A stretch of DNA of 64,000 nt from Candidatus Palauibacter soopunensis (GTDB lineage Bacteria; Gemmatimonadota; Gemmatimonadetes; Palauibacterales; Palauibacteraceae): assembly GCF_947581735.1 (NCBI RefSeq), contig NZ_CANPVT010000002.1:315511-379510 (forward strand), written 5' to 3'. The position numbers were made by a program, and so were the translations under genes. Positions 21,632-43,909 of this stretch are shown here, piece by piece (positions within the stretch are counted from its first letter, which is position 1; every line of letters starts with the position of its first letter). The notes under the pieces are model-generated. The model was not told the origin of the DNA. It worked only from the letters and a program-made list of their open reading frames with translations, and ran no database searches.

Positions 21632-23353
21632 TCAGCCGCTGATCTCGTGTGCCTCGCCGGCGCCCCGCGGCAGCCGGATCCGCTCGACCAGCCGCTGCGC
21701 CTCCGGCGGGGGCGCCGGCGTGAAGCGGGACACGACGATCGCCACCGCGAAGTTCACCGCCATCCCGATGGACCCGATGCCTTCGGGTGAGATTCCGAAC
21801 CACCAGTTCTCCGCCACGTTGGCGGCCGGGTTCACGAACTTGAAGTAGACGATGTAGGCGGCGGTGAGCGTGATCCCGCACAGCATGCCCGCGATCGCCC
21901 CCTCTCGGTTGAGCCGCTTCGAGAAGATGCCGAGGATGATGACGGGGAAGAACGACGACGCCGCGAGCCCGAACGCGAACGCGACGACCTCCGCCACGAA
22001 GCCCGGCGGGTTGATGCCGAGGTATCCGGCCACGAGGACGGCGAGTCCGGCGCTCACCCGCGCCGCGATCAGTTCTCCGTGTTCGCTGATGTCCGGCCGC
22101 CAGTTGCGCTTCAGCAGATCGTGGCTGATCGCCGCCGAGAGCACGAGCAGCAGTCCGGCCGCCGTCGAGAGCGCCGCCGCCAGTCCGCCCGCCGCCACGA
22201 GCCCCACCACCCAGTTCGGCAGCCGGGCGATCTCCGGATTCGCGAGCACCATGATGTCGCGGTCGATCGTGAGCTCGTTCTGCACGGGAGCACCCGCGGC
22301 GTCCACCGCCTCCGGTCCCACGTACTGGATCAGCCCGTCCCCGTTGTGGTCCTCGTACGAGATCAATCCCGTCGCCTCCCACTTCGTGAACCACTCCGGC
22401 ATCTCCGCGTACGGCTGGTCCGTCACCGTGTTGAGCAGGTTCGTCCGCGCGAACACCGCCACCGCCGGCGCCGCCGTGTACAGCAGCGCGATGAACACGA
22501 GCGCCCAGCCCACGCTGATCCGCGCGTCCCGCACCCGTGGCACCGTATAGAAGCGGATGATTACGTGCGGCAGCCCCGCCGTCCCCACCATGAGCGCGGC
22601 CGTGATCGCCAGCACGTCGAGCGTCGACTTCGTGCCGTCCGTGTAGGCCGCGAACCCAAGCTCCTGGTGCAGGCCGTTCAGGCGGTCGAGCAGGAACGTC
22701 CCCGTCTCCTGCTCCGCCGCGCCGAGCCCGATCTGGGGAATCGGAATCCCCGTGACCAGCATCGACAGGAAGATCGCCGGCACCATGTACGCGAAGATGA
22801 GCACGCAGTACTGCGCCACCTGCGTGTAGGTGATCCCCTTCATCCCCCCGAGCACCGCGTAGAAGAAGACGATCCCCATCCCGATGACCACGCCCCAGAC
22901 GATGTCGATCTCCAGAAAGCGGCTGAACACGATCCCCACGCCGCGCATCTGGCCCGCGACGTAGGTGAAGGAGACGAAAATCGCGCAGATCACGGCCACG
23001 ACCCGCGCCGTCTGGGAGTAGTAGCGCTCGCCCACGAAGTCCGGGACGGTGAAGGCCCCGAACTTCCGCAGATACGGGGCGAGGAGCAGCGCCAGGAGCA
23101 CGTAGCCGCCCGTCCAGCCCATGAGGTAGACGGAGCCGTCGTAGCCCAGGAAGGAGATGATCCCGGCCATCGAGATGAAGGAGGCGGCCGACATCCAGTC
23201 CGCCGCCGTCGCCATCCCGTTGGCGAGGGGATGAACCCCTTTGCCCGCGACGTAGAACTCGCTCGTGGAATGGGCCCGCGACCAGATCGCGATCCCGATG
23301 TAGAGTGCGAACGAAAGCCCGACGAGCGTCGCCGTCCACTGGAGAACCGTCAT
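21632..23353 (-). CDS. actP: Cation/acetate symporter (sodium:solute symporter family).
   Basis: Strong similarity to ActP (13-14 TM, GxxxG-rich); paired with the upstream DUF485 gene. Confidence 0.9.
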   Translation of the reverse strand: MTVLQWTATLVGLSFALYIGIAIWSRAHSTSEFYVAGKGVHPLANGMATAADWMSAASFISMAGIISFLGYDGSVYLMGWTGGYVLLALLLAPYLRKFGAFTVPDFVGERYYSQTARVVAVICAIFVSFTYVAGQMRGVGIVFSRFLEIDIVWGVVIGMGIVFFYAVLGGMKGITYTQVAQYCVLIFAYMVPAIFLSMLVTGIPIPQIGLGAAEQETGTFLLDRLNGLHQELGFAAYTDGTKSTLDVLAITAALMVGTAGLPHVIIRFYTVPRVRDARISVGWALVFIALLYTAAPAVAVFARTNLLNTVTDQPYAEMPEWFTKWEATGLISYEDHNGDGLIQYVGPEAVDAAGAPVQNELTIDRDIMVLANPEIARLPNWVVGLVAAGGLAAALSTAAGLLLVLSAAISHDLLKRNWRPDISEHGELIAARVSAGLAVLVAGYLGINPPGFVAEVVAFAFGLAASSFFPVIILGIFSKRLNREGAIAGMLCGITLTAAYIVYFKFVNPAANVAENWWFGISPEGIGSIGMAVNFAVAIVVSRFTPAPPPEAQRLVERIRLPRGAGEAHEISG

Positions 23354-23643
23354 GCCGCGCCCTCCTCGTCACGCTCGTCGACGTCGAACTCCCGGTCGAG
23401 CCGGTTCATGAGGAAGACGTAGACGAAGATGAGGACGACGAAGACGTAGATCGCGCCCTGCTGCGCGAACCAGAACCCGAGCGGGAAGCCGGTCCCCGGG
23501 ATCCGGACCGCGTCGAGCGCGTCCGCGAACACGATCCCGGCGCCGTAGGACACCAGAGCCCAGATCGCGAGAAGGATCCCCACATAACGGAGATTGCGGC
23601 GCCAGTACGCCAGATGATCGCGGCCTGCTGCGGGTCGATTCAT
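23350..23643 (-). CDS. DUF485 (YjcH-like) small inner-membrane protein accompanying ActP.
   Basis: ~97 aa, two TM; ATGA overlap with actP. Confidence 0.85.
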   Translation of the reverse strand: MNRPAAGRDHLAYWRRNLRYVGILLAIWALVSYGAGIVFADALDAVRIPGTGFPLGFWFAQQGAIYVFVVLIFVYVFLMNRLDREFDVDERDEEGAA

Positions 23644-23763
23644 GGGTCTCCCAGCGTGCGGGTCCGAACTTCCACGGGCTGCCAGGACTTCACTTCAGCG
23701 ACGCCCAAGGCTGCGGCCCGGCTGGGCGGCGCGCCAGTGTAACGCCTCGCGCAGCGACGGCGG

Positions 23764-25449
23764 CTACCAGAACACGCCGAACACGAGCCAGGCCGAGATG
23801 GCGGCGAGAACTCCCGTGTAGAGCGCCGGGCTGGCCAGCAGCGGCACGCGTTCGCTGAAGGGGTGGAGGCGGATCGGACCGAGTTCGCCGGAACTCTTCG
23901 CCAGCCAGTCGTCGGCGCGCGGGGCCGACGCATCGCCGCCGCCCGCCCCGATACCGGCCGTCCCGCGCCAGCGCGGGAGCAGCGCCGCGAAGGCGCAGCC
24001 GGCGGCCGTGAAAGCCACGGCCCACACGAACGCCTCCCACTGTCCGGTCAGCCAGGAAGGCAGCCACGAGATGTCGATGACCTCGCGATCCACGAAGCCG
24101 ATGACGCCGTACAGCCCTCCGGTGGCGAGACCGGCCATCCCCACCCGCCGGTTCGAGCGCGTGACGGCGCCGACGAGGTAGACGATGAGAAGCGGCGTGA
24201 CGAAGACGGACGTGACCGAGCGGAAGGCGGCGAGCATCGTCGGCGCGCGCAGGATCAGCGGCAGGTAGGCGAACCCCAGGACCAGGATCGCGACCGTCGC
24301 GATGCGTCCCACGCGGAGGTAGTGGGCGTCGTCCCGCTCCCGCGAGATGAAGCGCGCGTAGATGTCGCGCGTGAAGACGGCCGACATCGACGAGCCCATC
24401 GAATCGAAGGTGCTCACCGCGGCGCTCACCACGCCGGCCACCACGAGTCCCTTGGCGCCGATCCCGAGATAGGTGGAGATCAGGTGCGGGTACATTTCGT
24501 CGGGCCGGGCGAAGTCCGGGAACTGCGCCCGCCCGAAGAGCCCGAGCATGTCCGTGAAGAGCAGGATGACGAGGCTCACGCCGGCTCCCAGGACGCCGGC
24601 CATCTTCATGTCCCACAGCGAGCGGGCGCCCATCATCCGCTGGGTGGACGTGTGGCTCACCGTCCACCAGCCGGAGGAGATGAGAATCCACGCGATGAAG
24701 ATGACGGCCGGCGACGTGGTCCCGTCCCGTCCCCGGAAGGCGCCCACGTGGACCAGGTCCGCGGCGGCGAGGCCCGGCGCGAGTCCCTCGGCTGTCGTCC
24801 CCAGGCCTTCCAGTTGCGCAACCATCGCGTCCCAGCCGCCCACGGCCTGCCAGACGGCGATGCACACCGCGAGACCTCCCGCCATCACGAGCACGCTCTG
24901 CAGCACGTCCGTCGCGACGACCGCCCGCAACCCGCCCACGGCGGTGTAGACGCCCGACAGGACGACGAGCGATACGATGAGCGCCCAGGACAGTTCCGGT
25001 CTCAGTCCGCCGACCCCCACCAGGGTGAGATGGACGGACCAGATCATGAGCCCCAGCACGGAGGTCCGGTACTGGATCTGGATCAGCGCGCCGAGGACGC
25101 GCGTCCCCGGACCGAAGCGGTGCTCGAGGTACTCGGAGTTGGTGTACAGTCCGGCCCGGTAGATGGCGGGGACGATCACGAACGTGGCGATCGTCACCCC
25201 GATGAGTCCGCCGAACGTGTGCGCGGAGAGGAAATGCAGGCCCTCGCTCGCGATCGTCCCCGTGGCCGACACGAACTCCGAGTTGTCCATGTTGGTCGCG
25301 AAGAGGGACAGGCCGACGGCCCACCACGGCAGCGCTCTCGAACTCAGGAACCACTCGCCGCTCGTGGAGGTGCCGCGCGCGCGGCGCAGCCCGTAGGCGA
25401 TGATCGCACCGTTCAGTCCGAGGACGATCAGCCAGTCCAGGGCGCTCAA
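23764..25449 (-). CDS. Sodium:solute symporter (SSS) family transporter.
   Basis: SSS family signature regions; ~560 aa polytopic. Confidence 0.85.
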   Translation of the reverse strand: MSALDWLIVLGLNGAIIAYGLRRARGTSTSGEWFLSSRALPWWAVGLSLFATNMDNSEFVSATGTIASEGLHFLSAHTFGGLIGVTIATFVIVPAIYRAGLYTNSEYLEHRFGPGTRVLGALIQIQYRTSVLGLMIWSVHLTLVGVGGLRPELSWALIVSLVVLSGVYTAVGGLRAVVATDVLQSVLVMAGGLAVCIAVWQAVGGWDAMVAQLEGLGTTAEGLAPGLAAADLVHVGAFRGRDGTTSPAVIFIAWILISSGWWTVSHTSTQRMMGARSLWDMKMAGVLGAGVSLVILLFTDMLGLFGRAQFPDFARPDEMYPHLISTYLGIGAKGLVVAGVVSAAVSTFDSMGSSMSAVFTRDIYARFISRERDDAHYLRVGRIATVAILVLGFAYLPLILRAPTMLAAFRSVTSVFVTPLLIVYLVGAVTRSNRRVGMAGLATGGLYGVIGFVDREVIDISWLPSWLTGQWEAFVWAVAFTAAGCAFAALLPRWRGTAGIGAGGGDASAPRADDWLAKSSGELGPIRLHPFSERVPLLASPALYTGVLAAISAWLVFGVFW

Positions 25450-25492
25450 GGGATGGAGACGCTCCTGTCGTGAGGTTGCCGCGGTCGGGCAA

Positions 25493-25655
25493 AGTGTCGT
25501 GTCCCGGAAATACCCCGGCTATTCGAGCGCCGATGCATCCGGCTCCGCGGCGTTGCTCCTCCTCGAAATGACGCTGCCATTCCTCGTCGGAGCGCCTAGC
25601 GGAATCCGGCGCCTCGGCACTCTCGGTAGCTCGTGTATTTCCGGGACACGACACT
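25493..25655. repeat. 163-bp intergenic element bounded by perfect 21-bp terminal inverted repeats (AGTGTCGTGTCCCGGAAATAC … GTATTTCCGGGACACGACACT); MITE-like or a large regulatory hairpin.
   Basis: Seen directly: 25493-25513 is the exact reverse complement of 25635-25655; the interior is also imperfectly palindromic. Confidence 0.5.
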
Positions 25656-25715
25656 GGGCGTCCGCTACCGTAGCCGGCGCCCCGCCCGACGGTCAACGGC
25701 GGCCGCTCGGGTCGG

Positions 25716-27020
25716 TCATGCGGCGGCCGGCCGGGCCGGCAATGCTGCCGCCAGCGCGCGGTCGAGATCCTCGACGATGTCGTCGATGTGCTCGATGCCG
25801 ACGGAGAGCCGGATCGTCTCCGGACGCACGCCCACGCTGAGCTGCTCTTCCTCGGTGAGCTGCCGGTGCGTCGTGGACGCCGGGTGGCACGCCAGCGACT
25901 TCGCATCCCCGATGTTCACGAGCCGCTTGAACAGCTCGAGCGCGTCGTAGAACTTCACGCCCGCCTCGAAGCCGCCCTTCACCCCGAAGGTCAGGATCCC
26001 CGAAGCCCGGCCGCCCAGGTACTTCAGGGCCAGCTCGTGGTACGGATCGCCCGGCAATCCGGCGTAGCTCACCCACTCCACGGCCGGGTGGTCCTTCAGG
26101 TGCTTCGCCACGGCCAGCGCGTTCTCGGAGTGGCGCTCGATGCGGAGGTTCAGCGTCTGGATCCCCTGGATGATCTGGAACGCGTTGAAGGGCGAAATCG
26201 CCGACCCGGTGTTCCGCAACGGCACCGTGCGCGCCCGACCGATGTACGCGGCCGGCCCCAGCGCCTCCGTGTAGACGACCCCGTGGTAGCTGGGTTCCGG
26301 CGTCGTGAACTGCGGATAACGGATCTCGTGCTCCTCCCACGGGAATTTCCCGGAATCGACGATGGCGCCGCCGAGTGAGTTGCCGTGGCCGCCGATGTAC
26401 TTCGTCAGCGAATGCACCACGATGTCGAACCCGTGTTCGATCGGCTTGAGGAGCGCGGGCGTGGCGACCGTGTTGTCCACGATGGTGGCGACTCCGTGGG
26501 CGTGCGCCACGTCGGCCACCGCCGCGAGGTCTACGATGTTGCCCGCCGGGTTCCCGATGCTCTCGACGAACACCGCCTTCGTGCGGGCATCGATCAGCTT
26601 GGCCAGATCGTCCGGGCCGTCGCCTTCGGCGAAGCGCACTTCGATCCCCAGCTGCGGCAGCATGTGGGCGAAGAGCGTGTACGTGCCGCCGTACAACTGG
26701 GGCACCGAGACGATGTTGTCCCCCGCGGCGGCGAGATTGAGGATGGAGTAGTTGACCGCTGCGCTGCCGGAGGAGAGCGCCAGCGACGCCAGCCCGCGCT
26801 CGAGCTGGGCAATCCGCTCCTCCAGCACGGCCTGCGTGGGGTTCATGATGCGGGAGTAGATGTTTCCCTCGACCTCGAGGTTGAAGAGGTCCGCGCCGTG
26901 CTGCGCGTCGTCGAACTCGTACGCCACGGTCTGGTACAGCGGCACCGCGACGGCGTGCGTGGTGGGCTCGGACTCGTATCCGAGGTGAATCGCTACTGTT
27001 TCGTCTCTCATTGGTCTCAA
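25716..27020 (-). CDS. metY: O-acetylhomoserine aminocarboxypropyltransferase (O-acetylhomoserine sulfhydrylase), PLP-dependent.
   Basis: Cys/Met-metabolism PLP family; HSLTKYIGGHG PLP-lysine region; ~434 aa. Confidence 0.9.
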   Translation of the reverse strand: MRPMRDETVAIHLGYESEPTTHAVAVPLYQTVAYEFDDAQHGADLFNLEVEGNIYSRIMNPTQAVLEERIAQLERGLASLALSSGSAAVNYSILNLAAAGDNIVSVPQLYGGTYTLFAHMLPQLGIEVRFAEGDGPDDLAKLIDARTKAVFVESIGNPAGNIVDLAAVADVAHAHGVATIVDNTVATPALLKPIEHGFDIVVHSLTKYIGGHGNSLGGAIVDSGKFPWEEHEIRYPQFTTPEPSYHGVVYTEALGPAAYIGRARTVPLRNTGSAISPFNAFQIIQGIQTLNLRIERHSENALAVAKHLKDHPAVEWVSYAGLPGDPYHELALKYLGGRASGILTFGVKGGFEAGVKFYDALELFKRLVNIGDAKSLACHPASTTHRQLTEEEQLSVGVRPETIRLSVGIEHIDDIVEDLDRALAAALPARPAAA

Positions 27021-27095
27021 CCCTTTCGTGAGATCGATTGCGACTGGATCAGGCCCGAACGCCGGGCCGTGAACTTCCGTGTACCTGGCCGATGC

Positions 27096-28169
27096 TCATC
27101 GGTGCGGAACCCGGATCGGGGTGCCTCGCGCGTCAGCGGACTCTCGCGCGAGACACAACTCGGCATTGAGCAAACAGGCGCCGGCGGCGCCCCGGATGCC
27201 GTTGTGCGAGACCACGGTCATCGCGAGGTCGTGTGGCGGCGCGGCACGAATCCTTCCGACGCTCGCCGCCATCCCTCCGGCCGCGCCGATGTCCAGGCGC
27301 GGCTGTGGACGGTCGGGCTCCGACCGCACGATGAGCGGTCGCTCGGGAAGCGAAGGCAGACCCGGCAGGGATGGCGGGCCTCTGAACTCGGCGAGCGCCC
27401 GCGCGGCGTCCCCGGGACTCGCGGGCGATGCGAGCTTCAGAAAGACGTTCGCGGTGTGGCCGTCGAGCACCGGTACGCGGTTGACGCTCGCCGCCACGGG
27501 AATATCGGTCCCCAGGATCTTGTTGAGTTCGGGACCGATCTTCTCCTCTTCGCCCGGGATCCAGGGAATGGCGTTCCCTCCGATCTGAACGGAGCCGATC
27601 CCGTGGAGCCCGGCGCCGGTGACGGCCTGCAGCGTGACGATCGTGGCCGACTCGATGCCGAAAGTCTCCTGGATGGGAGCCAGCGCCAACGCCAGCCCCG
27701 CGACCACGCAGTTCGGGTTGGCGACGAGGCGGCCCCCCCGCTCCGACCACGGCTGGGTCGCCGTGAGAGTCAGGGCCTGCGGGTTCACCTCCGGCACCAA
27801 CAGCGGCACGTCCGCTCGCAGCCGGTGCGCCGAGGCGTTGGTGCATACGGTGTGCCCCGCTTCGGCGAGCGACGGTTCGAGCCGGTGCGCCACGCGCGAA
27901 GGGAGCGCGGAGAGCACGAGCCGGCAGGGCGGCCGCTCGACCGCCATGCGCAGGGGCAGCGGAACAGCCTCCGCGGGAGGATCTCCTCCGAGACTCCACC
28001 GGACCACGTCGCCGTACCTCTCGCCCGCATGCGTCTCGGACGCGGCGACCGCCGCAAGCCGGAGCGTCGGGTGGCCGTCCAGCATCCGAACGAGCCGCTG
28101 CCCGACGATCCCGGTCGCGCCCAGGACGGCCACGGGCACGCGTTCATTCGACGGATGGGTCAGGCGCAT
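27096..28169 (-). CDS. asd: Aspartate-semialdehyde dehydrogenase.
   Basis: VAVLGATGIVGQ NAD(P)-binding N-terminus; active-site Cys region ANPNCVV. Start set at the internal ATG (RBS ggagaggag upstream); the 5' extension in the track overlaps the lysC-like gene. Confidence 0.85.
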   Translation of the reverse strand: MRLTHPSNERVPVAVLGATGIVGQRLVRMLDGHPTLRLAAVAASETHAGERYGDVVRWSLGGDPPAEAVPLPLRMAVERPPCRLVLSALPSRVAHRLEPSLAEAGHTVCTNASAHRLRADVPLLVPEVNPQALTLTATQPWSERGGRLVANPNCVVAGLALALAPIQETFGIESATIVTLQAVTGAGLHGIGSVQIGGNAIPWIPGEEEKIGPELNKILGTDIPVAASVNRVPVLDGHTANVFLKLASPASPGDAARALAEFRGPPSLPGLPSLPERPLIVRSEPDRPQPRLDIGAAGGMAASVGRIRAAPPHDLAMTVVSHNGIRGAAGACLLNAELCLARESADARGTPIRVPHR

Positions 28170-28939
28170 CGGGCACGCTCCTCTCCGCCATGGCCGGTGT
28201 CGGGCGGCGGGTCGTTTCTGCCGACCCAGGTGCCCGTGCCGCCTGGAGCCGCCACCCTGAAGGCGACCCGGTGCCGCTCGGCGAAGCTCAGCGCCCGGTC
28301 CTGAACGACTCCGGCGCCCGTTCGCCGGGCCTCGCTCCACGATGTCCGGCGGATCGGCTTGACGTGCGGGAACCGTTTCGGGTCGGCCGGGAAGATCCCA
28401 TCCACATCCTTCACGAGACGGACTTCCGCCGCGCCGAGCGCGTGTGCGAGGAAAAGCGCCGTAAGGTCCGAGCCTCCCCGCCCGAGCAGCGACGTGATGC
28501 CCGTGGCGTCGACGCCCACGAATCCGGGAAGGACGATCACGTCGTGCGTGGCCAGGGCCGTCTCGATCGCCCGAGCGTCCACGTCCACCGGCTCGGCGGC
28601 CCCGAGCGGCCCCCGGGTGCGGATCGGCAGGCGCGAGAACGACATGCCCACCGCACGCACGCGCCCCGTCACCAGGGCGAGGTGCAGCAGGGCGACGGAC
28701 GCTTCCTCCCCGGGCGCGAGGAGAGATCCGATGAGGTCGTCCGGGAGCGAGGGCGCAACTTCGCGCGCCGCGGAAAGAAGATCGTCGGTGGTGTCCCCCA
28801 TGGCCGACACGACGGCAACGACCTTCGCGCCGGCGGCGACTTCAGCCCGGATCTCCTCGACCGCCAGCCGGTATGCGGCCGGATGCGCCAGCACGGATGA
28901 ACCGAATTTGAGTACGTGAACGCGGCGAACTTCGCGCAA
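28160..28939 (-). CDS. lysC: Aspartokinase-like amino-acid kinase, catalytic domain only (no ACT regulatory domains); probable TTG start.
   Basis: VLKFGSSV N-terminus, VVVSAMGDTTDDLL, LLAPGEEASVALL, SLLGRGGSDLTA, VKDVDGIFPADP. The track's 5' extension (to 29050) reads through the SAM riboswitch and is rejected. Confidence 0.65.
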   Translation of the reverse strand: MREVRRVHVLKFGSSVLAHPAAYRLAVEEIRAEVAAGAKVVAVVSAMGDTTDDLLSAAREVAPSLPDDLIGSLLAPGEEASVALLHLALVTGRVRAVGMSFSRLPIRTRGPLGAAEPVDVDARAIETALATHDVIVLPGFVGVDATGITSLLGRGGSDLTALFLAHALGAAEVRLVKDVDGIFPADPKRFPHVKPIRRTSWSEARRTGAGVVQDRALSFAERHRVAFRVAAPGGTGTWVGRNDPPPDTGHGGEERARCA

Positions 28940-29037
28940 TGAAACGCCTCCCCCCGAGTCTCGATTCACGCTCAGCGGACTCCGGAGAAGCGACGCCCTG
29001 GGAACTGCAGCTGCCGTGCAATGAAGCGCGGCGGGCG

Positions 29038-29153
29038 ACTCATCTACCAACGGATTACATCCGTCGCAGGAGTTGGCACATCAGTGGAAGAGCCACCTTC
29101 CACAGGTTGCCCCGGTGTCTTCGGGCCTGTCCCTCGACCGGTCTCGATGAGCG
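29038..29153 (-). promoter_or_regulatory. SAM-I (S-box) riboswitch in the leader of the lysC-like/asd/metY operon.
   Basis: Minus-strand RNA: GCUCAUCGAGACCGGUCGAGGGACAGGCCCGAAGACACCGGGGCAACC…UGUGCCAACUCCUGCGACGGAUGUAAUCCGUUGGUAGAUGAG. P1 CUCAUC/GAUGAG, GAGGGA, GGCCC, GGCAACC, GUGCCAA-UCCUGC all present. Confidence 0.85.
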
Positions 29154-29273
29154 TTGTGGGCGCGGAGGCTACAGGGTCGTGGGCGGCGCGTCAAGTTTTG
29201 GCGGGCGAAGCCGGGCGAGAGGCGCCGCGCGTGTTTCTTGACCGCCGTTGCCGGACCCATTAGGGTCGGCCGC

Positions 29274-29385
29274 TACTCATCGAGACCGGCTGAGGGACGG
29301 GCCCTTTGAAGCCGGGGCAACCGGGGCGCAACGCCCAGCGGTGCCAACTCCTGCGGACCCCGAACACGGGTCCGAGAGATGAGCG
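29274..29385 (+). promoter_or_regulatory. SAM-I (S-box) riboswitch in the leader of metX.
   Basis: ACUCAUCGAGACCGGCUGAGGGACGGGCCCUUUGAAGCCGGGGCAACCGGGGCGCAACGCCCAGCGGUGCCAACUCCUGCGGACCCCGAACACGGGUCCGAGAGAUGAG matches the P1-P4 consensus almost residue for residue. Confidence 0.9.
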
Positions 29386-29504
29386 TCGGACCCGCACGGT
29401 CGGTCGGCTGCTCCGGAGTTGGCGTCGCGAACCACAGACGCGAGCCGAAACGGAGACACAGCTTGAACGCCGTACTGCCGGAGGGTCGGAGGGGCGCCGT
29501 CGCG

Positions 29505-30479
29505 ATGCCGGCGGCGTGGAGACCGGAACTGGAGGCCGGGATCGACGCCTGCTTCCGGGTGCGCTACGAACTCGCCGGACCCGAGGGCGCCCCGCTGCTC
29601 GTCGCGATGGGGGGGATCTCCGCCGACCGCCACGTCTGCGCCAACGCCCTGGACCCCGCGCCCGGCTGGTGGAGGAAGCTGGCGGGCCCGGGTCTGGCCA
29701 TCGACACGAACCGCTGGCGGCTGCTCGCGATCGACTTCCTCGGATCTCCCGGGACGTTCGAGTCGCCGGATCGGATCCATCTCACGCCCGGAGACCAGGC
29801 GGACGCCGTCGCGGTCGCGCTGCGCCACCTCGGTGTCGAACGGGCCCACCGCATGCTGGGCGCCTCCTACGGCGGCATGGTCGCGCTGGCGATGGGGATC
29901 CGCCATCCCGCCCGCCTCGACGGCGTCGTGCTGATCGGCGCGGCGCACCGCGGCCATCCCCAGGCCATCGGAATCCACGCGGTGCAGCGCTGGATCGTCG
30001 AGTTCGCGCTCCGGCACGGCCGGGGGAGCGAAGGCGTGGCGCTCGCCAGGGCGCTGGCGTTCACGACCTACAAGTCCGCGGAAGGGCTCGACGCCCGCTT
30101 CCCGCACGACTGGGAGTGGGAGGATGGCGCCCCGGTCTACGCCGTCGGCCGCTACCTGGAGAAACAGGGACGGGAGTTCGCGGAACGGTTCGAGGCGGAG
30201 ACCTATCTGACGCTGTCGGCTTCGGTCGACCTGTGCGACCTGCGTCCGGACGAACTCGGCGTCCCCGCCTGGCTCATCGGGTGGGAGGAGGACACGCTGG
30301 TCCCGCCCTGGCTGCTCCTGGAGACCGCAGGCCGGATCGGCGCGCCTTCTCGCCTGCGGATTCTGAACTCCGACGCGGGCCACGACGCCTTCCTGCTCCA
30401 CGCGCCCGACTACGAGGAAGCCCTGAGGGAGAGTCTCTTCGCGACGGAACCGCAGGCCCTCGCGGGCTCAGCCGGATGA
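29505..30479 (+). CDS. metX: Homoserine O-acetyltransferase (alpha/beta hydrolase).
   Basis: GASYGGMVA nucleophile elbow; MetX family. Start set at the ATG at 29505, downstream of the riboswitch; the track's 29379 start lies inside the aptamer. Confidence 0.85.
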   Translation: MPAAWRPELEAGIDACFRVRYELAGPEGAPLLVAMGGISADRHVCANALDPAPGWWRKLAGPGLAIDTNRWRLLAIDFLGSPGTFESPDRIHLTPGDQADAVAVALRHLGVERAHRMLGASYGGMVALAMGIRHPARLDGVVLIGAAHRGHPQAIGIHAVQRWIVEFALRHGRGSEGVALARALAFTTYKSAEGLDARFPHDWEWEDGAPVYAVGRYLEKQGREFAERFEAETYLTLSASVDLCDLRPDELGVPAWLIGWEEDTLVPPWLLLETAGRIGAPSRLRILNSDAGHDAFLLHAPDYEEALRESLFATEPQALAGSAG

Positions 30480-30488
30480 CTCGCGGGT

Positions 30489-32210
30489 TCAGCCGGGCGC
30501 CGCCGCCGCGACGGGAAGCCGCACGCACGAAGGATATGCGGCGGTGTGCAGGACCGTGTTCCGCGCCGTCCGCATGCGCGTGCCCGTCCCCACGTCCTCC
30601 CCCGTGTTGAGGTTGCGGCTGAAGCGGGGGAAGCAACTGCTCGTGATCTGAAGCCTGATCCGGTGGCCGGCCCGGAACACGTGGCTCATCGGATAGAGCC
30701 GGATCCGGAACTCGGTGGCTTCGTTCGGCTCCAGAAGCTCCGTCCGGTCCAACCCCCCTCGATATCGCGCGCGCAGGATCCCCTCTGTGAATACGAATGA
30801 TCCTCCCGCCGGATCGACGTCCGTCACCCGCGCCACGAAGTCCGTGTCGCGCGCCGAAGATTCAGCGTAGAGCACGACCTCGACCGGCCCCGTGACCTCG
30901 AGATCGTCCTCCAGAACCCGCGAGGTGTAGACGAGCACGTCGGGCCGCCGCTCGAGCGGCGCCTGCTCGACGGGGCCGCCCCGCATCGGCGTCTCGGCGT
31001 GGGTCGTGATCAGCCGGGAAGAGAGATTGCCCCCGAGTGAGGGCGCCGGATCGCGCGGATCGTACTCGAAGCGGTCCGGCGGCTCGTCCCCGGGAGGCTC
31101 CGGATCGAGCCGGGCGTCGTCGCCCCGGTTCGCGCGCCCGCGGCTGTGCAGATACCAGGGCACTTCCTCCGTCCCCGGCGGCGGCCACTCCGCGCCCTCC
31201 CGCCACCGGTTGGCGCCCGTCGTGAACCAGCGCAGCGGCGGGTCTTCGCCGATCCCGTCGTCCACGCCGCGAAGCTGCCAGTCGAACCAGCGCCGCTCCT
31301 CCTCCCGCACATCCACCCAGGCGTCCGGGCCGAAGTCGAGGTCCCCGACCGTCCTCGTCTCCGGGACCTCGTGCGACCAGGGCCCGAGCAGGCTCCGGCT
31401 CTGCGTGCGGGCGCGCGGGGTCGCCGCCCCCGACATCCCCTCGTGGATGCGAAGCAGGGACCCCGGATACGCGTCGTACCACCCGCCCTGCTGAAACACC
31501 GGCGCCGTGACGCGGTCGTATTGGTCCGTGACCCTGAGGCGCCGCCAGTACTCGTCCCGCGTCGGGTGTTCCAGCCACTCCCGCCAGTAGGGGATCTTCC
31601 GTCCGATCGCGCGCTCGTCCATCTCGATGAGCGGCAGATGGGCCCAGAACTTCGGGTTCTGAAACAGGCGCGCGGCCTGCGGGCCGGTCACGATGGCGAG
31701 GTTCGTCTCCCAGATCACGGCCGCTGCGAGCGAGAGGAGCAACTGGAAAGCCCCGCCCAGGTAGTGACAGTCGCCGAAGTGGTCGTCGCAGATCACGTGC
31801 GACGCCATGCAGGTGAGGTGCGGGCTGCCGAGCGGCGCGCTGAGCCACTGCGTGAGCCCGCCGTAGCTGCGCCCCCACATCCCGATCTTCCCGTCGCACC
31901 ACGCCTGCCCCGCCACCCACTCCAGCGTGTCGTGCCCGTCCTCGATCTCGGGGAGATACGCGTGGAACACGCCCTCGGACTGGAACCGGCCGCGACAGTC
32001 CTGGACCACGAACGCGTACCCGCGCTCGGCCCACCAGACGCCGTTGTCGATGAACACGTCCCGGCCGCTTTCGTACGGCGTCCGGGTCAGGATGGTGGGG
32101 AAGGGACCTCCGGAAGCGGGCAGATAGACATCCGCCGAAAGCCGCACCCCGTCCCGCATCCGCCCCCGCACCCCATGCAGCAGCCGCACCTCCCGCGGGG
32201 ATTCGGGCAC
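30489..32210 (-). CDS. CocE/NonD family hydrolase (S15 X-Pro dipeptidyl-peptidase-like).
   Basis: GRSYGG nucleophile elbow; CocE/NonD C-terminal beta-sandwich domain; GTG start. Confidence 0.8.
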   Translation of the reverse strand: MPESPREVRLLHGVRGRMRDGVRLSADVYLPASGGPFPTILTRTPYESGRDVFIDNGVWWAERGYAFVVQDCRGRFQSEGVFHAYLPEIEDGHDTLEWVAGQAWCDGKIGMWGRSYGGLTQWLSAPLGSPHLTCMASHVICDDHFGDCHYLGGAFQLLLSLAAAVIWETNLAIVTGPQAARLFQNPKFWAHLPLIEMDERAIGRKIPYWREWLEHPTRDEYWRRLRVTDQYDRVTAPVFQQGGWYDAYPGSLLRIHEGMSGAATPRARTQSRSLLGPWSHEVPETRTVGDLDFGPDAWVDVREEERRWFDWQLRGVDDGIGEDPPLRWFTTGANRWREGAEWPPPGTEEVPWYLHSRGRANRGDDARLDPEPPGDEPPDRFEYDPRDPAPSLGGNLSSRLITTHAETPMRGGPVEQAPLERRPDVLVYTSRVLEDDLEVTGPVEVVLYAESSARDTDFVARVTDVDPAGGSFVFTEGILRARYRGGLDRTELLEPNEATEFRIRLYPMSHVFRAGHRIRLQITSSCFPRFSRNLNTGEDVGTGTRMRTARNTVLHTAAYPSCVRLPVAAAAPG

Positions 32211-36862: not shown

Positions 36863-37323
36863 CCGACTCCGGATCGCCCCCGGGCTACCGTCCCAACCTC
36901 GACGAGGCGGTCGAGACGTGGTCGAGCATGAACGACGCCTCGATCCTGCGCAGCGTCGCCGCCGTCATCCTGGGGTTCGTGGTGCTGACGCTGGGCTCGG
37001 TGCTCGCCGGCCGGCTGATGCTGTCGCTGTTCGGCGTCGAACCGGAGATGGCTCCGGGCGCCGCGTTCATCTTCACGAGCCTGGGCGTGCGCCTCGCGGT
37101 CACCGTTCTGGCGGGCTTCCTCGCGGCCCTCGCCGCCCCGCGCGCGCCGCGGCTCCATGCGGTTGTCCTGGCGGCGATTCTCGTCTTCTTCAGCCTCGCC
37201 TCGCTCGCCGGCCTCTCGGCGTCCGGCGACCCGTACGGGCCCGCATGGTACCCCATCGTGATGCTCGTCATCGGCCCCGTCGGCGTCCTCATCGGCGGTG
37301 CCCTCCGAGCCGGACGACGCTGA
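36859..37323 (+). CDS. Small hydrophobic membrane protein (hypothetical).
   Basis: ATGA overlap with the upstream gene; 3-4 TM segments. Confidence 0.4.
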   Translation: MTDSGSPPGYRPNLDEAVETWSSMNDASILRSVAAVILGFVVLTLGSVLAGRLMLSLFGVEPEMAPGAAFIFTSLGVRLAVTVLAGFLAALAAPRAPRLHAVVLAAILVFFSLASLAGLSASGDPYGPAWYPIVMLVIGPVGVLIGGALRAGRR

Positions 37324-37348
37324 TCCGGTGCCCCCGGAAAGGTCGGAA

Positions 37349-38476
37349 ATGCGAATCGAAACGCTGGCGGTGAAGACGGGCATGGACCCGGACGCGACGA
37401 GTCGGGCGATCGCGCCCCCGATCACGCTCTCGACCACCTTCGAGCGCGGGGAGGACGGGTCGTACCCCGGCGGGTTCGACTACTCCCGCAGCGGGAATCC
37501 GAACCGGGCCTTGCTGGAGGCGGCGCTCGCCGCGCTGGAGGGCGGGCCGGAAGCCGTCGCGTTCCCCTCGGGGATGGCGGCGACGTTCGCCGTCATCTTC
37601 TCGCTCGCGCCGGGGGATCACGTCGTCGCCGCGGACGACGCGTACTACGGGACCGGCGTTCTCCTGCGGGACTCGTTCGCCGAGCGCGGCATCGAGGCGA
37701 GCTTCGTCGACATGACCGACCTCGACGCCGTCCGCGCCGCCATGCGGCCGAACACCCGCCTCGTGTGGATGGAGACGCCGTCGAACCCGCTCATCCGCAT
37801 CTCCGACATCGAGGCGCTCGCCGGCATCGCCCGGGAGGGCGGGGCGATCTCGTGCTGCGACAACACGTGGGCGACGCCGCTCCTGCAGCGGCCGCTGGAT
37901 TTCGGCGTGGATCTCGTCATGCACTCCACGACCAAGTACTTCGGCGGCCACAGCGACGTGACCGGCGGCGCGGTCATCGTGCGCGAGCCGGGCGGGACGC
38001 TCGATGCACTGCGGAAGATCCAGAAGGACGGCGGCCTCGTGCCGTCGCCCTTCGACGCCTGGCTCACGAGGCGCGGCCTGGAGTCGCTCGCCGCGCGCAT
38101 GGCCCTGCACTGCGCCAACGCCATGGAGCTTGCCCGCTTCCTCGACGCCCACCCGCGCGTCGAGCGGGTCCACTATCCGGGCCTGGAGAACGATGCCGGG
38201 CACGCCCTCGCCGCGCGTCAGATGTCCGGCTTCGGCGGCATGCTGTCCTTCGACGTCGCGGGCGGCCAGGAAGAGGCGTTCGCGGTCGCGGCCCACGTGA
38301 AGGTCATCGCCCGCGCCACGAGTCTCGGGGGGACCCACTCCCTCATCGAGCACCGGGCGTCCGTCGAAGGTCCGACGACCCGAGCTCCGGAGAACCTGCT
38401 CCGCATGTCCGTCGGCCTCGAACACATCGACGATCTGAAGGAGGATCTGGACCGGGCCCTCTCCGCCGCCTCCTGA
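37349..38476 (+). CDS. metB: Cystathionine gamma-synthase / gamma-lyase family PLP enzyme (trans-sulfuration).
   Basis: Cys/Met-metabolism PLP family; HSTTKYFGGHSD PLP-lysine motif. Confidence 0.8.
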   Translation: MRIETLAVKTGMDPDATSRAIAPPITLSTTFERGEDGSYPGGFDYSRSGNPNRALLEAALAALEGGPEAVAFPSGMAATFAVIFSLAPGDHVVAADDAYYGTGVLLRDSFAERGIEASFVDMTDLDAVRAAMRPNTRLVWMETPSNPLIRISDIEALAGIAREGGAISCCDNTWATPLLQRPLDFGVDLVMHSTTKYFGGHSDVTGGAVIVREPGGTLDALRKIQKDGGLVPSPFDAWLTRRGLESLAARMALHCANAMELARFLDAHPRVERVHYPGLENDAGHALAARQMSGFGGMLSFDVAGGQEEAFAVAAHVKVIARATSLGGTHSLIEHRASVEGPTTRAPENLLRMSVGLEHIDDLKEDLDRALSAAS

Positions 38477-41500: not shown

Positions 41501-42259
41501 AAAGCCCGTGAGCAGGTTCTCGCCCCAGATCCCTGTGACCGGCGCGTGCCGGACCACGCGGATCGAGTCCGTCCCTTCGACCTGCGTGACGAGTGCCGAT
41601 ACGTCATCGGCCAGCGGGCGACCGTCCCGCACGCGCCAGTCGAGGTGCCCACCGAGCCACGGCCGCCGCTCGAACAGGCACACCCGCAGGCCGCGCCGTC
41701 CGGCCTCGAGCGCCGCCGACAGCCCCGCCGGGCCGCCGCCGACCACCGCCACGTCCGCGTGCAGATAGCGCTCCGCCCGCTCCCCCGCGTCCGCCCGCTC
41801 CGCCGCGTCCAGCCTCAACACGCCCAGGCCGGCCAGCGCCCGCATCCGCTCCTGGAAGAACCGGGCGGCCCACGCGGGCCGGTGGAAGAGCCGGTAGTAG
41901 AAACCCGCCGGCATGAACCGGTCGAGCCGGTCCAGGAAACCGAACGCGTCGAACCGCGGGTCGCCGCGCACGTTCTGCGCTCCGACCTCCATCCCCTCGC
42001 GCAGCGGCGCCGTCCCCGCCGACTGGTTCGGCACGCCGTCGATCGAGACGAGCTGGCTCGACCCTTCCCCCTCCAGGTCGTACAGGCCCCGTGGCCGGTG
42101 ATACTCGAAGCTCCGGCCGAAGGTGCGGATCCCCGCCCCCCAGAGGGCCGAGGCGACCGTGTCTCCCTCGAACCCCTCCAGCGCGCGCCCGCACCAGCGG
42201 AAATCGAGCGGGCGCGAACGGTCGAGGCGCTCCGTCGAAGAGGGCGGCAGCCGGCTCAC
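38543..42259 (-). CDS. soxA: Heterotetrameric sarcosine oxidase alpha subunit (SoxA), continuing in-frame into a ~210-aa gamma-subunit (SoxG)-like region with no intervening stop.
   Basis: N-terminal [2Fe-2S]-like region, VAVVGGGPAGLSAALEA NAD/FAD fold, GcvT-like folate domain, SoxA-like …VVPPHFYDPKG C-terminus, then RRSPV… SoxG-like sequence; 1238 aa in total (typical SoxA ~1000 plus SoxG ~200). Confidence 0.75.
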   Translation of the reverse strand: MSRLPPSSTERLDRSRPLDFRWCGRALEGFEGDTVASALWGAGIRTFGRSFEYHRPRGLYDLEGEGSSQLVSIDGVPNQSAGTAPLREGMEVGAQNVRGDPRFDAFGFLDRLDRFMPAGFYYRLFHRPAWAARFFQERMRALAGLGVLRLDAAERADAGERAERYLHADVAVVGGGPAGLSAALEAGRRGLRVCLFERRPWLGGHLDWRVRDGRPLADDVSALVTQVEGTDSIRVVRHAPVTGIWGENLLTGFQHGGAERAAGGATAGGSATMPFDRGPREVHWECRARTIVVATGSIERPLVFEHNDRPGVMQVDTAIRLARTYGVRPGAAAAFSVGDDLGLEAAADLAALGVDIRVVADARREGHDPELVDALSAAGIDFRPGWAATRVRGRGRVRGVEVAARAGSGAGGGGAGDALRVACDLLVASAGRQPDIGVLSCAGARFRHGERTRTFELERLPPDVFAAGGVLRLTDLEALTGSGRIAGLEAAAACGTDVAGALTRERARLADLPGPARGSSIVRGPAAGRRLAPGRKAFLDFDEDGTWKNAAQCAAYAFDVPELAKRFGNFGLGPGQYRVPGQNLAMAMAEIAGRPVGSFAATTVRPPVIPPSLATLAGPNHDIHKRTPLHDDQASRGAVFRRAGPWQRARYFSEDRECLEEIRNVRENVGLLDSSPLGKFRIWGPDALRALQRAYVSDMTRARPGRCAYSAMCNDTGNIIDDGVVVRTGEDEFYFTTSSNRAGTTVEWLRFHTRYDGWDYNLVNLTDALASINVAGPNARRVLEKITGADLSDEAFPYLGCREIEVGDGVAARCLRLGFVGELSYELHVRASCARYVWDLLWEAGAEYGIRPFGLEAQNCLRAEKGHVIIGTESEQRVTLLDIGMGWLWDREDLASGKVGAAALRHCEEQAGRLKLVGLRIDDGDIAHRPEDGALVVDGERIAGFVCTTRHSATLGWQYGLALVEDRLAERGRSLDLYESPGRRTVRSTATVVPPHFYDPKGQRLRIAPEGRPRRSGEASSQPAPAAHRRSPVRFDAAPARTERRAGWNVVLDYETDRASTDALRQACLIDLSHRTRWDAQHRNIRAVQPFGLDVPRTPGDVQVRDGLMINRMNGTQASIWHVGPGAPPAMPDSPHYTDTTDSHCWLALLGDSVQEVLESVTDLDLLNPVRARPFLTQGPVLHVPCQVVTWRDDAVLIAFSRGYAQAFVEALLESGRHAGLRPAGERVFTDWIHALES

Positions 42260-42591
42260 GACGGATCTCCCCCGCTCGCCTCATTCTCGCCCGCGTCGCC
42301 GCCGCCGGGCCGCGTCTCCCGGTTCGTGGCCGGGTCGCGCCAGGTCGAAAACCAGACGCCGCAGCCGGCCCCGTGGTGCCACCACTCCTCGTGCGGCTCC
42401 AGGCGGTTCATGCGGAACTGCGCCCACCGGAAGTGCGCCTCGGCGGCGGCCCCGGGATCCGATCCGGCCGCCGGATCCGGGTCGGCCGCGGGCTCCGCCT
42501 CCGCCGGCCTCGGCCCCCGCTCCGGTCCCCCGTACGTGAACTCGTACACGTCGCGCTTCCCGCACACCGGGCACGTCAACCGGAACGTCAC
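42256..42591 (-). CDS. soxD: Sarcosine oxidase delta subunit.
   Basis: LTCPVCGKRD zinc-finger-like N-terminus; ~110 aa; ATGA overlaps on both sides. Confidence 0.8.
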   Translation of the reverse strand: MTFRLTCPVCGKRDVYEFTYGGPERGPRPAEAEPAADPDPAAGSDPGAAAEAHFRWAQFRMNRLEPHEEWWHHGAGCGVWFSTWRDPATNRETRPGGGDAGENEASGGDPS

Positions 42592-43900: not shown

Positions 43901-43909
43901 GCCTGAAGG

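What the first reader, a model, noticed from the sequence alone, without database searches (positions are those of the whole stretch)
28160..28939. Aspartokinase reduced to its catalytic domain and placed under a SAM riboswitch
The first gene of the riboswitch-controlled operon encodes ~260 aa with the aspartokinase signature regions (KFGSSV, VVVSAMGDTTD, LLGRGGSDLTA, VKDVDGIF). It ends right after the kinase domain, overlapping asd. The tandem ACT domains that mediate Lys/Thr feedback are absent. The inference is a methionine-dedicated aspartokinase whose allosteric control has been replaced by RNA-level SAM sensing. It probably starts on TTG. This arrangement deserves documentation.
Basis: partly seen in the sequence, partly recalled or inferred. 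Interest (0 to 1): 0.55.

Follow-up and report, generated by a model that had tools for sequence, protein, structure and literature searches.

The report
Aspartokinase without regulatory domains, SAM-riboswitch controlled
A sponge-associated bacterium makes the first enzyme of the aspartate amino-acid pathway without its usual feedback-sensing domains and puts it behind an RNA switch that senses S-adenosylmethionine; the same design recurs in hundreds of genomes and goes unrecognised by standard annotation.

Summary
Window 28939..28160 (-) encodes a 259-aa protein that starts on TTG. It has one AA_kinase domain and no ACT domain, and it resembles aspartokinases far more than any other amino-acid kinase. 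The four residues needed for catalysis and aspartate binding are invariant. Its stop overlaps the asd start by 10 nt, and a SAM-I aptamer lies 97 nt upstream.

It is not a one-off truncation. Relatives were confirmed in 392 matched stretches of the species-representative genome collection, mostly Gemmatimonadota and some Acidobacteriota. Of the 80 loci fetched, 77 carry a SAM riboswitch upstream of the operon (71 SAM-I, 6 SAM-I/IV), always with metX or metY/metB genes. The nearest outside relatives also lack ACT domains. Many are about 580-aa aspartokinase-homoserine dehydrogenase fusions, and the three examined lie among methionine genes, one behind a SAM-I riboswitch.

Published annotation tables for 48 Palauibacterales genomes list no canonical aspartokinase, a single asd, and no spare AA_kinase protein. 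This gene is therefore probably the only aspartokinase in this genus.

I rate it a new variant of a known kind. E. coli MetL under MetJ-SAM control is the closest functional analogue. Enzyme activity and riboswitch mechanism are untested.

The parts
29037..29153 (-). SAM-I riboswitch aptamer in the leader of the aspartokinase operon
   Evidence: Rfam RF00162, 74.0 bits (gathering score 44.4), full-length model match. Also 125 bits with the local model R1.
28945..28992 (-). Predicted hairpin in which CGCUUCUCC (28992-28984) pairs with the Shine-Dalgarno GGGGGGAGGCG (28955-28945). Probable translational expression platform.
   Evidence: Present in the MFE fold and in the consensus fold of 11 Palauibacter leaders. 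All paired columns are invariant, so there is no covariation either way. No terminator-like site lies in 25400-30700. The function is inferred.
28160..28939 (-). ACT-less aspartokinase, 259 aa, TTG start
   Evidence: The C-terminal tail (residues 244-259) is unconserved and low-confidence (pLDDT <50).
27096..28169 (-). asd, aspartate-semialdehyde dehydrogenase (archaeal/eukaryotic-type family). Its ATG overlaps the aspartokinase stop by 10 nt.
   Evidence: TIGR00978 353 bits (cutoff 301), NF006416 357 bits; Pfam Semialdhyde_dh plus Semialdhyde_dhC.
25716..27020 (-). metY, O-acetylhomoserine sulfhydrylase, third gene of the operon
   Evidence: TIGR01326 631 bits (cutoff 495); Pfam Cys_Met_Meta_PP 5.6e-131. 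The start may be the ATG three codons in.
29274..29385 (+). Second SAM-I aptamer, divergent, in the leader of metX
   Evidence: Rfam RF00162, 88.4 bits.
29505..30479 (+). metX, homoserine O-acyltransferase. The probable start is ATG 29505, behind GGAGGGG.
   Evidence: NF006449 273 bits (cutoff 296, just below); Abhydrolase_1. Start inferred from the sequence. The ATG at 29379 lies inside the aptamer P1 stem.

Best explanation
The gene encodes a working aspartokinase that consists of the catalytic amino-acid-kinase domain alone. It phosphorylates aspartate, and the translationally coupled Asd reduces the product to aspartate semialdehyde. MetY, together with the divergent MetX, completes a methionine module.

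Because the protein has no ACT domains, it cannot be feedback-inhibited by Lys or Thr in the classical way. Control is exerted on expression instead. A SAM-I aptamer in the leader binds S-adenosylmethionine, and the leader most likely then hides the ribosome-binding site. This is a conserved design of a whole protein family, not a local truncation. In the genus of this window (Ca. Palauibacter) it is probably the only aspartokinase and the only asd.

Shown: domain content, subfamily affinity, conserved catalytic residues, fold, gene order, and riboswitch presence across lineages. Inferred: enzyme activity, insensitivity to amino acids, translational mode of the switch, and sole-aspartokinase status.
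For: (1) Domain and subfamily. AA_kinase is the only Pfam family found. The best NCBIfam matches are 23 aspartate kinase models covering their catalytic half. PDB sequence hits are aspartokinases at about 1e-28 over chain residues 5-240.

(2) Fold. The AF2 model has pLDDT 86. The Foldseek top 35 PDB hits are all aspartokinases, the best being 5yei with TMq 0.85 and rmsd 2.2 A.

(3) Residues. EcAKIII K8, E119, R198 and D202 (catalysis; alpha-amino and alpha-carboxylate binding of Asp; PMC4142519) align to K11, E78, R154 and D158. All four are invariant in 28 family members at 57-80% identity.

(4) Spread. More than 120 homologues of 232-349 aa have AA_kinase only. The genome-collection scan confirmed 392 matched stretches as relatives.

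(5) Context. All 80 genome loci place the gene in or next to metX, metY/metB-like or asd genes. In 77 of 80 a SAM riboswitch lies upstream on the same strand: 71 SAM-I and 6 SAM-I/IV in Acidobacteriota. Two of the remaining three are contigs cut upstream.

(6) More distant ACT-less relatives show the same logic. L083 is SAM-I, metX, Cys/Met-PLP, AK-HSD fusion. L087 is SAM-I, metX, PLP, AK249. L089 is SAM-I/IV, PLP, AK255, PLP.

(7) Fusion to homoserine dehydrogenase in the closest outside relatives is Rosetta-stone support for a role in the aspartate-to-homoserine pathway.

(8) Pathway-hole argument. Palauibacterales genomes have asd, metX and metY but no K00928. Their AA_kinase proteins are otherwise accounted for.

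(9) Class II and III aspartokinases, the closest structural relatives, oligomerise through the catalytic domain (PMC4142519). Loss of ACT therefore need not abolish assembly.
Against: No enzyme assay exists for any member. The protein fails every NCBIfam aspartate kinase cutoff (158 bits against 376), although this is expected for half a protein.

The conserved residues bind the alpha-amino and alpha-carboxylate groups, so they would not by themselves exclude homoserine as substrate.

The sole-aspartokinase claim rests on threshold-based annotation of MAGs in one paper, not on a direct scan of a closed genome. Three of the six sponge MAGs in the last six table columns have a PF00696 count of 3, so the short gene itself was not counted there.

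If it really is the only aspartokinase, SAM repression should also starve the DAP, Lys and Thr branches (dapB, dapF, lysA, thrC and murE are present). That is unexplained.

The SD-sequestering hairpin has no covariation support.
Confidence: 0.72

Rival explanations
1. This is a methionine-dedicated extra isozyme, and a normal ACT-bearing lysC or thrA elsewhere in the genome supplies the Lys, DAP and Thr branches.
For: It makes regulatory sense. E. coli (MetL/ThrA/LysC) and B. subtilis use branch-specific isozymes (own knowledge). Gemmatimonadales genomes do carry K00928 lysC (PMC11596202 Table S2). In about 30 of the 80 loci asd is not in the operon, so in those genomes part of the pathway is encoded elsewhere.
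Against: There is no K00928 row in the KO table of 48 Palauibacterales genomes. K12524 occurs in 2 of 48 and asd is single-copy. PF00696 counts are exhausted by pyrH, proB, lysZ and this gene. No second aspartokinase-like sequence occurs in the 64-kb window or in about 1 Mb of fetched loci, which is weak evidence.
Confidence: 0.15
2. The protein is only the catalytic subunit. A separately encoded ACT-domain protein, analogous to the beta subunit of class II aspartokinases, binds it and restores amino-acid feedback.
For: Class II aspartokinases are alpha2beta2 with an ACT-only beta subunit (PMC4142519). The closest PDB relatives are class II and III enzymes.
Against: No ACT-domain gene was seen next to the aspartokinase in the loci inspected or anywhere in the window ORFs scanned with Pfam.
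Confidence: 0.06
3. It is an amino-acid kinase with a different substrate, for example a homoserine kinase filling the missing thrB, or a kinase for another methionine-pathway intermediate.
For: thrB (K00872) is absent from the sponge Palauibacter genomes while thrC is present. The conserved E78 and R154 contacts would also fit homoserine. Fusion to homoserine dehydrogenase would also suit a homoserine kinase.
Against: All sequence, profile and fold comparisons rank aspartokinases first by a wide margin. The gene is translationally coupled to asd, the consumer of aspartyl phosphate, and asd has no other supplier in these genomes. The operon carries metX, so homoserine is activated by acylation, not phosphorylation. 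Known AK-HSD fusions (ThrA, MetL) are aspartokinases.
Confidence: 0.06
4. It is a truncated pseudogene or an assembly or frameshift artefact of a normal lysC.
For: None beyond the short length.
Against: The same 232-349-aa architecture occurs in more than 120 homologue clusters and in 392 confirmed genome matches, with 60-odd invariant positions. asd starts inside the last codons, leaving no room for ACT-coding sequence. tblastn with a full-length aspartokinase never extends past residue 269 in any locus.
Confidence: 0.01

Closest known systems
E. coli MetL (aspartokinase II-homoserine dehydrogenase II) under MetJ/SAM repression
   Same: It is an aspartokinase of the methionine regulon whose output is set by SAM-dependent control of expression, not by end-product allostery. 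MetL is a core MetJ regulon member (PMC4239095). Its lack of feedback inhibition is from my own knowledge. Relatives of the window protein are fused to homoserine dehydrogenase as MetL is.
   Different: SAM is sensed by a protein repressor in E. coli and by an RNA aptamer here. MetL is about 810 aa and keeps the central regulatory-domain region. The window protein is monofunctional, 259 aa, and has no such region. E. coli has two further aspartokinases, whereas Palauibacter apparently has none.
Class II/III monofunctional aspartokinases (C. glutamicum LysC 3aaw, P. aeruginosa 5yei, Synechocystis 3l76)
   Same: They are the best sequence and fold matches (30-36% identity, TMq 0.75-0.85). They share the compact catalytic domain of about 245 residues and the same catalytic and Asp-binding residues. 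In these classes the catalytic domains contact one another.
   Different: They carry two or four ACT domains, plus a beta subunit in class II, which bind Lys and Thr. The window protein ends at the catalytic domain.
B. subtilis lysC under the lysine (L-box) riboswitch
   Same: It is an aspartokinase gene controlled by a riboswitch that senses a pathway end product (own knowledge).
   Different: The ligand is different (lysine against SAM). B. subtilis LysC keeps its ACT domains and its lysine feedback inhibition.
Short archaeal aspartokinase models (TIGR02078 AspKin_pair, 327 positions; NF006234 PRK08373, 338 positions)
   Same: They are precedents for aspartokinase-like proteins much shorter than the canonical 400-450 aa (one search lists both).
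   Different: The window protein scores far below their cutoffs (58 against 242 bits; 70 against 237 bits). It is about 70 aa shorter and is bacterial. No riboswitch link is known to me for the archaeal forms.
ACT-less AK-HSD fusions of about 580 aa (Planctomycetota, Acidobacteriota), named only 'homoserine dehydrogenase' by NCBI and JGI
   Same: They have the closest aspartokinase domains outside the family (42-51% identity) and also lack ACT. The three examined lie among methionine genes, one behind a SAM-I riboswitch.
   Different: They are fused to homoserine dehydrogenase. The window protein is free-standing and coupled to asd instead. I found no paper that describes them.

Membership tests
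Aspartate kinase (EC 2.7.2.4), amino-acid kinase superfamily | Amino-acid kinase fold (PF00696) | tested here: met
   Pfam 1e-33, 117 bits against a cutoff of 24.9. The AF2 model has pLDDT 86 and the AAK fold.
Aspartate kinase (EC 2.7.2.4), amino-acid kinase superfamily | Closer to aspartokinases than to UMP, glutamate-5, acetylglutamate, carbamate or isopentenyl phosphate kinases | tested here: met
   NCBIfam aspartate kinase models reach 1e-46 to 1e-14, against 1e-3 for IPK and UMPK. All PDB sequence hits are aspartokinases. The Foldseek top 35 are all aspartokinases.
Aspartate kinase (EC 2.7.2.4), amino-acid kinase superfamily | Catalytic Lys and Asp, and aspartate-binding Glu and Arg (EcAKIII K8, D202, E119, R198) | tested here: met
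   K11, D158, E78 and R154 align to them and are invariant in alignment A1. Residue roles are from PMC4142519.
Aspartate kinase (EC 2.7.2.4), amino-acid kinase superfamily | C-terminal tandem ACT regulatory domains | tested here: not met
   No ACT family at E<=0.1. Profile matches stop at about position 240 of 407. asd begins before the stop codon.
Aspartate kinase (EC 2.7.2.4), amino-acid kinase superfamily | Passes a curated aspartate kinase model cutoff (NCBIfam; KEGG K00928) | tested here: not met
   The best score is 158 bits against a cutoff of 376; TIGR00657 gives 156 against 209. NCBI names homologues 'hypothetical protein'. There is no K00928 call in 48 Palauibacterales genomes.
Aspartate kinase (EC 2.7.2.4), amino-acid kinase superfamily | ATP-dependent phosphorylation of L-aspartate | not testable with these tools
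   This needs an enzyme assay or genetic complementation.
SAM-I (S-box) riboswitch regulon | RF00162 aptamer in the 5' leader on the same strand | tested here: met
   74 bits against a gathering score of 44.4, 97 nt upstream of the start. The link is conserved in 71 loci, and in 6 further loci with SAM-I/IV.
SAM-I (S-box) riboswitch regulon | Expression platform (terminator, or SD sequestration) that responds to aptamer state | tested here: inconclusive
   No terminator-like site. An SD-sequestering hairpin is predicted and its sequence is invariant in 11 leaders, but there is no covariation and no explicit anti-sequestor.
MetL-type methionine-regulon aspartokinase | Fusion to homoserine dehydrogenase | tested here: not met
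   The window protein is monofunctional. No Homoserine_dh or NAD_binding_3 gene was found among the 44 window ORFs scanned with Pfam. Relatives are fused.
MetL-type methionine-regulon aspartokinase | No inhibition by Lys, Thr or Met; control by SAM-dependent expression only | not testable with these tools
   The absence of ACT makes it plausible. Kinetics are needed.
Archaeal short aspartokinases (TIGR02078 / PRK08373) | Score above the family cutoff | tested here: not met
   57.9 against 242.4 bits, and 70.1 against 237 bits.

The most novel reading that the evidence does not exclude
In sponge-associated Palauibacter the SAM riboswitch is the single valve on the whole aspartate pathway. The only aspartokinase (without any allosteric domain) and the only asd sit behind it. 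Either DAP, Lys and Thr supply is subordinated to SAM level through a deliberately leaky translational switch, or the aspartate pathway has become essentially methionine-only in these symbionts, or ACT-less aspartokinases have an undiscovered ACT-independent feedback mechanism. More broadly, a large unannotated clade of ACT-less aspartokinases (free or fused to homoserine dehydrogenase) would mean that many 'missing lysC' auxotrophy calls in MAG studies are artefacts.
Probability: 0.35. Interest if true: 0.65.

Novelty: new variant of a known kind. Interest (0 to 1): 0.5.

Why it matters
Aspartokinase is the textbook case of branch-point allostery, and its ACT domains gave the domain part of its name. 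A natural, widespread clade that drops them and relies on a SAM riboswitch shows a different solution to controlling the aspartate family.

There are practical consequences. The genes fail NCBIfam cutoffs, and no K00928 call appears in the published Palauibacterales table. They are labelled 'hypothetical protein', or 'homoserine dehydrogenase' for the fusions. Metabolic reconstructions of Gemmatimonadota, Acidobacteriota and Planctomycetota MAGs may therefore score the aspartate pathway as broken and may over-call auxotrophies.

A naturally feedback-free 26-kDa aspartokinase would also interest amino-acid production strain engineering.

Tried and rejected
1. I looked for a canonical aspartokinase by tblastn, using full-length C. 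glutamicum LysC written from memory. Its catalytic part agrees with the 3aaw alignment. The search covered the window and about 1 Mb of fetched loci. Only the short genes matched, and no alignment passed residue 269. This cannot speak for whole genomes.

2. I found no tool route to scan a closed Palauibacter chromosome. I used published KO and Pfam tables instead.

3. Seven literature searches found no paper on ACT-less aspartokinases or on SAM-riboswitch control of an aspartokinase. The library does not hold most subscription journals, so this is absence in that library only.

4. The terminator and promoter scan of 25400-30700 found nothing.

5. The covariation test of the SD-sequestering hairpin was uninformative because every paired column is invariant. 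The whole-leader fold is no more stable than shuffles (z = 0.13).

6. A crude NJ tree of 153 aspartokinase domains (p-distance, no support values) intersperses short and fused forms. It is too weak to count fusion or fission events, and some 'short' representatives may be gene fragments.

7. The listing of cluster members on ten relatives gave almost no names or taxa.

8. I rejected pseudogene, UMP/G5K/NAGK membership, and a hidden ACT in another frame.
Full report
**What is at the coordinates.** On the minus strand an ORF runs from 29050 to 28160. A SAM-I aptamer occupies 29153..29037 (RF00162, 74 bits against a gathering score of 44.4). The only start codon between the aptamer and the KFGSS motif is TTG at 28939, preceded by GGGGGGAGG 7 nt upstream. 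The valine the ORF list might suggest as a start is GTT. The product is 259 aa.

The stop TGA at 28162-28160 lies inside the asd gene, whose ATG is at 28169, giving a 10-nt overlap. asd passes its equivalog cutoff (TIGR00978, 353 against 301 bits). metY follows it (TIGR01326, 631 against 495 bits). A second, divergent SAM-I aptamer (29274..29385, 88 bits) precedes metX.

**Is it an aspartokinase, and are the ACT domains really missing?**
- Pfam finds AA_kinase only (1e-33) and no ACT family even at E<=0.1.
- NCBIfam lists 23 aspartate kinase models (5e-46 to 5.5e-14). All are aligned over their first 230-290 positions, out of 327-861. Isopentenyl phosphate kinase and UMP kinase reach only about 1e-3.
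- All significant PDB sequence matches are aspartokinases, matched over chain residues 5-240.
- An AF2 model built on 28 family members has pLDDT 86. Only the last 16 residues are disordered.
- The top 35 Foldseek PDB hits are aspartokinases. The best is P. aeruginosa 5yei, with TMq 0.85 and rmsd 2.2 A.
- Mutagenesis and crystallography of E. coli AKIII assign catalysis to K8 and D202, and binding of the aspartate alpha-amino and alpha-carboxylate groups to E119 and R198 (PMC4142519). These align to K11, D158, E78 and R154. All four are invariant in the family alignment.

There is no room for a hidden ACT, because asd begins before the stop codon. A full-length aspartokinase query never aligns past residue 269 in any locus.

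**It is a family, not an accident.** The protein search returned more than 120 clusters of 232-349 aa with AA_kinase as the only domain, at 57-96% identity. Where a source names them, they are called 'hypothetical protein' from Gemmatimonadota. A scan of one genome per species confirmed 392 matched stretches as relatives. The window is closest (98%) to Ca. Palauibacter irciniicola, a sponge-associated Gemmatimonadota MAG.

Gene order in the 80 fetched loci falls into a few patterns:
- In Palauibacter: metX (divergent), two riboswitches, then AK-asd-metY.
- In most Longimicrobiales: riboswitch, metX, metB/Z-like, AK, with asd following in about half.
- In Acidobacteriota/Vicinamibacteria MAGs: AK-asd-metY.

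A covariance model built from four local SAM-I aptamers finds an aptamer on the operon strand in 71 loci. The six Acidobacteriota-type loci that it misses carry a SAM-I/IV aptamer instead (RF01725, 44-61 bits). Of the three loci with neither, two are contigs cut off upstream and one is unresolved. The link between the ACT-less kinase and SAM sensing therefore holds in 77 of 80 loci. It holds across two aptamer classes, two phyla and several gene orders. No ACT-domain or homoserine dehydrogenase gene was seen beside the kinase in the loci inspected.

**The wider clade.** An exhaustive HMMER search of 1.8 billion cluster representatives gave 357 clusters at E<=1e-30. Among the best 150, 49 are under 330 aa, 93 are over 500 aa and 8 are intermediate. 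None has the 400-450-aa length of a canonical ACT-bearing monofunctional aspartokinase.

Four of the five long proteins scanned with Pfam are AA_kinase + NAD_binding_3 + Homoserine_dh with no ACT. These are compact aspartokinase-homoserine dehydrogenase fusions. The fifth is fused to a DapE/ArgE-like M20 peptidase. The fusion family is large. It occurs in Planctomycetota and Acidobacteriota and is named only 'homoserine dehydrogenase' by NCBI and JGI.

Contexts repeat the theme:
- L083/L084: metX, Cys/Met-PLP enzyme, AK-HSD. A SAM-I aptamer was found upstream in L083 (L084 was not scanned).
- L085: PLP, AK-HSD, PLP. No riboswitch was detected.
- L087: SAM-I, metX, PLP, AK (249 aa).
- L089: SAM-I/IV, PLP, AK (255 aa), PLP.
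- L088: a lone 268-aa gene with no riboswitch detected.

ACT loss is thus old and clade-wide. A crude NJ tree intersperses free and fused forms but is too weak to interpret.

**Is there a second, normal aspartokinase?** I could not scan a whole genome, but published tables bear on the question. The paper that named the Palauibacterales annotated its MAGs with KofamKOALA. Its KO table for 48 genomes runs K00927, K00929, K00930, so there is no K00928 (aspartate kinase) row. K12524 (thrA) appears in 2 of 48.

asd (K00133) is present once in the Palauibacter columns. One of these is RHO1_bin_50, the genome of locus L006, where that single asd is the one in the riboswitch operon. asd shares its phyletic pattern with metX, dapB, metH and proB.

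The Pfam sheet gives 3-4 AA_kinase proteins in the six sponge MAGs (IRC and RHO bins) that fill the last six table columns. pyrH, proB and lysZ account for three of them, which leaves at most one: this gene. By contrast, Gemmatimonadales such as G. aurantiaca do carry K00928 (PMC11596202 Table S2).

In this genus, therefore, the ACT-less enzyme is probably the only aspartokinase. Three caveats apply. The annotations are threshold-based, the genomes are MAGs, and three of the six sponge MAGs show only three PF00696 proteins.

**What remains unexplained.** The same genomes have dapB, dapF, lysA, thrC and the DAP-adding MurE, but no recognised hom, thrB or dapA. If aspartokinase and asd are single and SAM-repressed, then DAP and Thr supply would fall when SAM is high. 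Possible answers are a leaky, graded translational switch; further unrecognised enzymes; or lysine supply through the LysW system (K05826-K05828 are present). None of these was tested.

**How the switch probably acts.** No terminator-like element lies between 25400 and 30700. In the MFE fold, and in the consensus fold of 11 Palauibacter leaders, CGCUUCUCC (28992-28984) pairs with the Shine-Dalgarno GGGGGGAGGCG (28955-28945). This stretch is invariant while the sequence just upstream varies. The metX leader has a similar CUCCGGAG element upstream of its GGAGGGG. This fits translational control, as described for riboswitches in general (PMC4239095). There is no covariation, however, and I could not define the anti-sequestor, so this step is an inference.

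**Comparison with what is known.** The logic is that of E. coli MetL: an aspartokinase of the methionine regulon governed by SAM-dependent repression of expression and not by allostery. The MetJ regulon membership is; MetL's insensitivity to feedback is from my own knowledge. B. subtilis lysC under the lysine riboswitch is a precedent for riboswitch control of an aspartokinase (own knowledge).

Structurally the protein is the catalytic domain of class II/III aspartokinases, in which the catalytic domains themselves make oligomer contacts. It does not meet the ACT criterion or any curated aspartokinase cutoff. I therefore file it as 'works like an aspartokinase, atypical architecture'. Short archaeal aspartokinase models exist (TIGR02078, PRK08373), but it is not a member of either. 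Seven literature searches found no description of ACT-less aspartokinases or of SAM-riboswitch-controlled aspartokinases.

**Verdict.** This is a real and conserved feature. It is partly wrong, in that the gene is probably not an accessory isozyme. I rate it a new variant of a known kind, with interest 0.5. Its value lies in the breadth of the unannotated clade, the textbook status of aspartokinase allostery, and the puzzle of a single SAM-gated entry to the aspartate pathway.

Noticed in passing
window 29037-29385: Two SAM-I aptamers lie back to back on opposite strands, 120 nt apart (29153 to 29274). Each heads one arm of a divergent methionine regulon (AK-asd-metY and metX). The arrangement is kept in the Palauibacter loci L004-L011 and L013-L015.
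   Followed up: partly
L083 5959-7722; L085 6001-7776; proteins P0128, P0136, P0137: Aspartokinase-homoserine dehydrogenase fusions of about 580 aa with no ACT domain, common in Planctomycetota and Acidobacteriota. NCBI and JGI name them only 'homoserine dehydrogenase'. They sit in methionine operons, and L083 has a SAM-I riboswitch.
   Followed up: partly
protein P0142 (617 aa, NCBI contig of 5.2 kb): An ACT-less aspartokinase domain fused to an M20 peptidase that resembles DapE/ArgE. This would link aspartokinase to the lysine/DAP branch instead of the methionine branch.
   Followed up: no
L032 5411-5513, L040 5491-5592, L051, L054, L055, L043, L089 3588-3709: In Acidobacteriota-type loci the same aspartokinase operon is preceded by a SAM-I/IV aptamer, not SAM-I. 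In L032 the aptamer lies about 0.45 kb upstream of the aspartokinase, an unusually long spacer whose content is unclear.
   Followed up: partly
Published KO table for Palauibacterales (PMC10469786, supplementary file 10): Sponge Palauibacter genomes show no recognised hom, thrB or dapA although metX, metY, thrC, dapB, dapF and lysA are present. They also carry LysW/LysX/LysZ. Several aspartate-family steps may be catalysed by unrecognised enzymes, and the paper's lysine auxotrophy call may be affected.
   Followed up: partly
L075 5630-5749 and 7990-8108; L018 and L045 (same MAG, CAUVXA02): One genome carries two SAM-I riboswitches in tandem, one before AK-asd and one before metX-metB. Another MAG carries two separate copies of the metX-metB-AK operon.
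   Followed up: no
L088 5001-5807: A 268-aa ACT-less aspartokinase relative stands alone, with no methionine genes nearby and no Rfam riboswitch. It has a 630-nt upstream gap, so it could have a different or unknown leader.
   Followed up: no
window 37298-38476 (+): A second Cys/Met-metabolism PLP enzyme (Pfam 2e-121) lies 8 kb from the operon and has no riboswitch. Its role (cystathionine lyase or synthase) was not examined.
   Followed up: no
window 38543-45229 (-): A 1238-aa protein combines 2Fe-2S, FAD/NAD-binding, sarcosine-oxidase A3 and GCV_T domains. Two DAO-family oxidoreductase genes flank it on the high-coordinate side (42599-45229). This looks like a sarcosine or dimethylglycine oxidase-like cluster.
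   Followed up: no
window 21632-25449 (-): Two sodium:solute symporter genes lie directly downstream of metY on the same strand. I did not test whether they belong to the riboswitch-controlled transcript.
   Followed up: no
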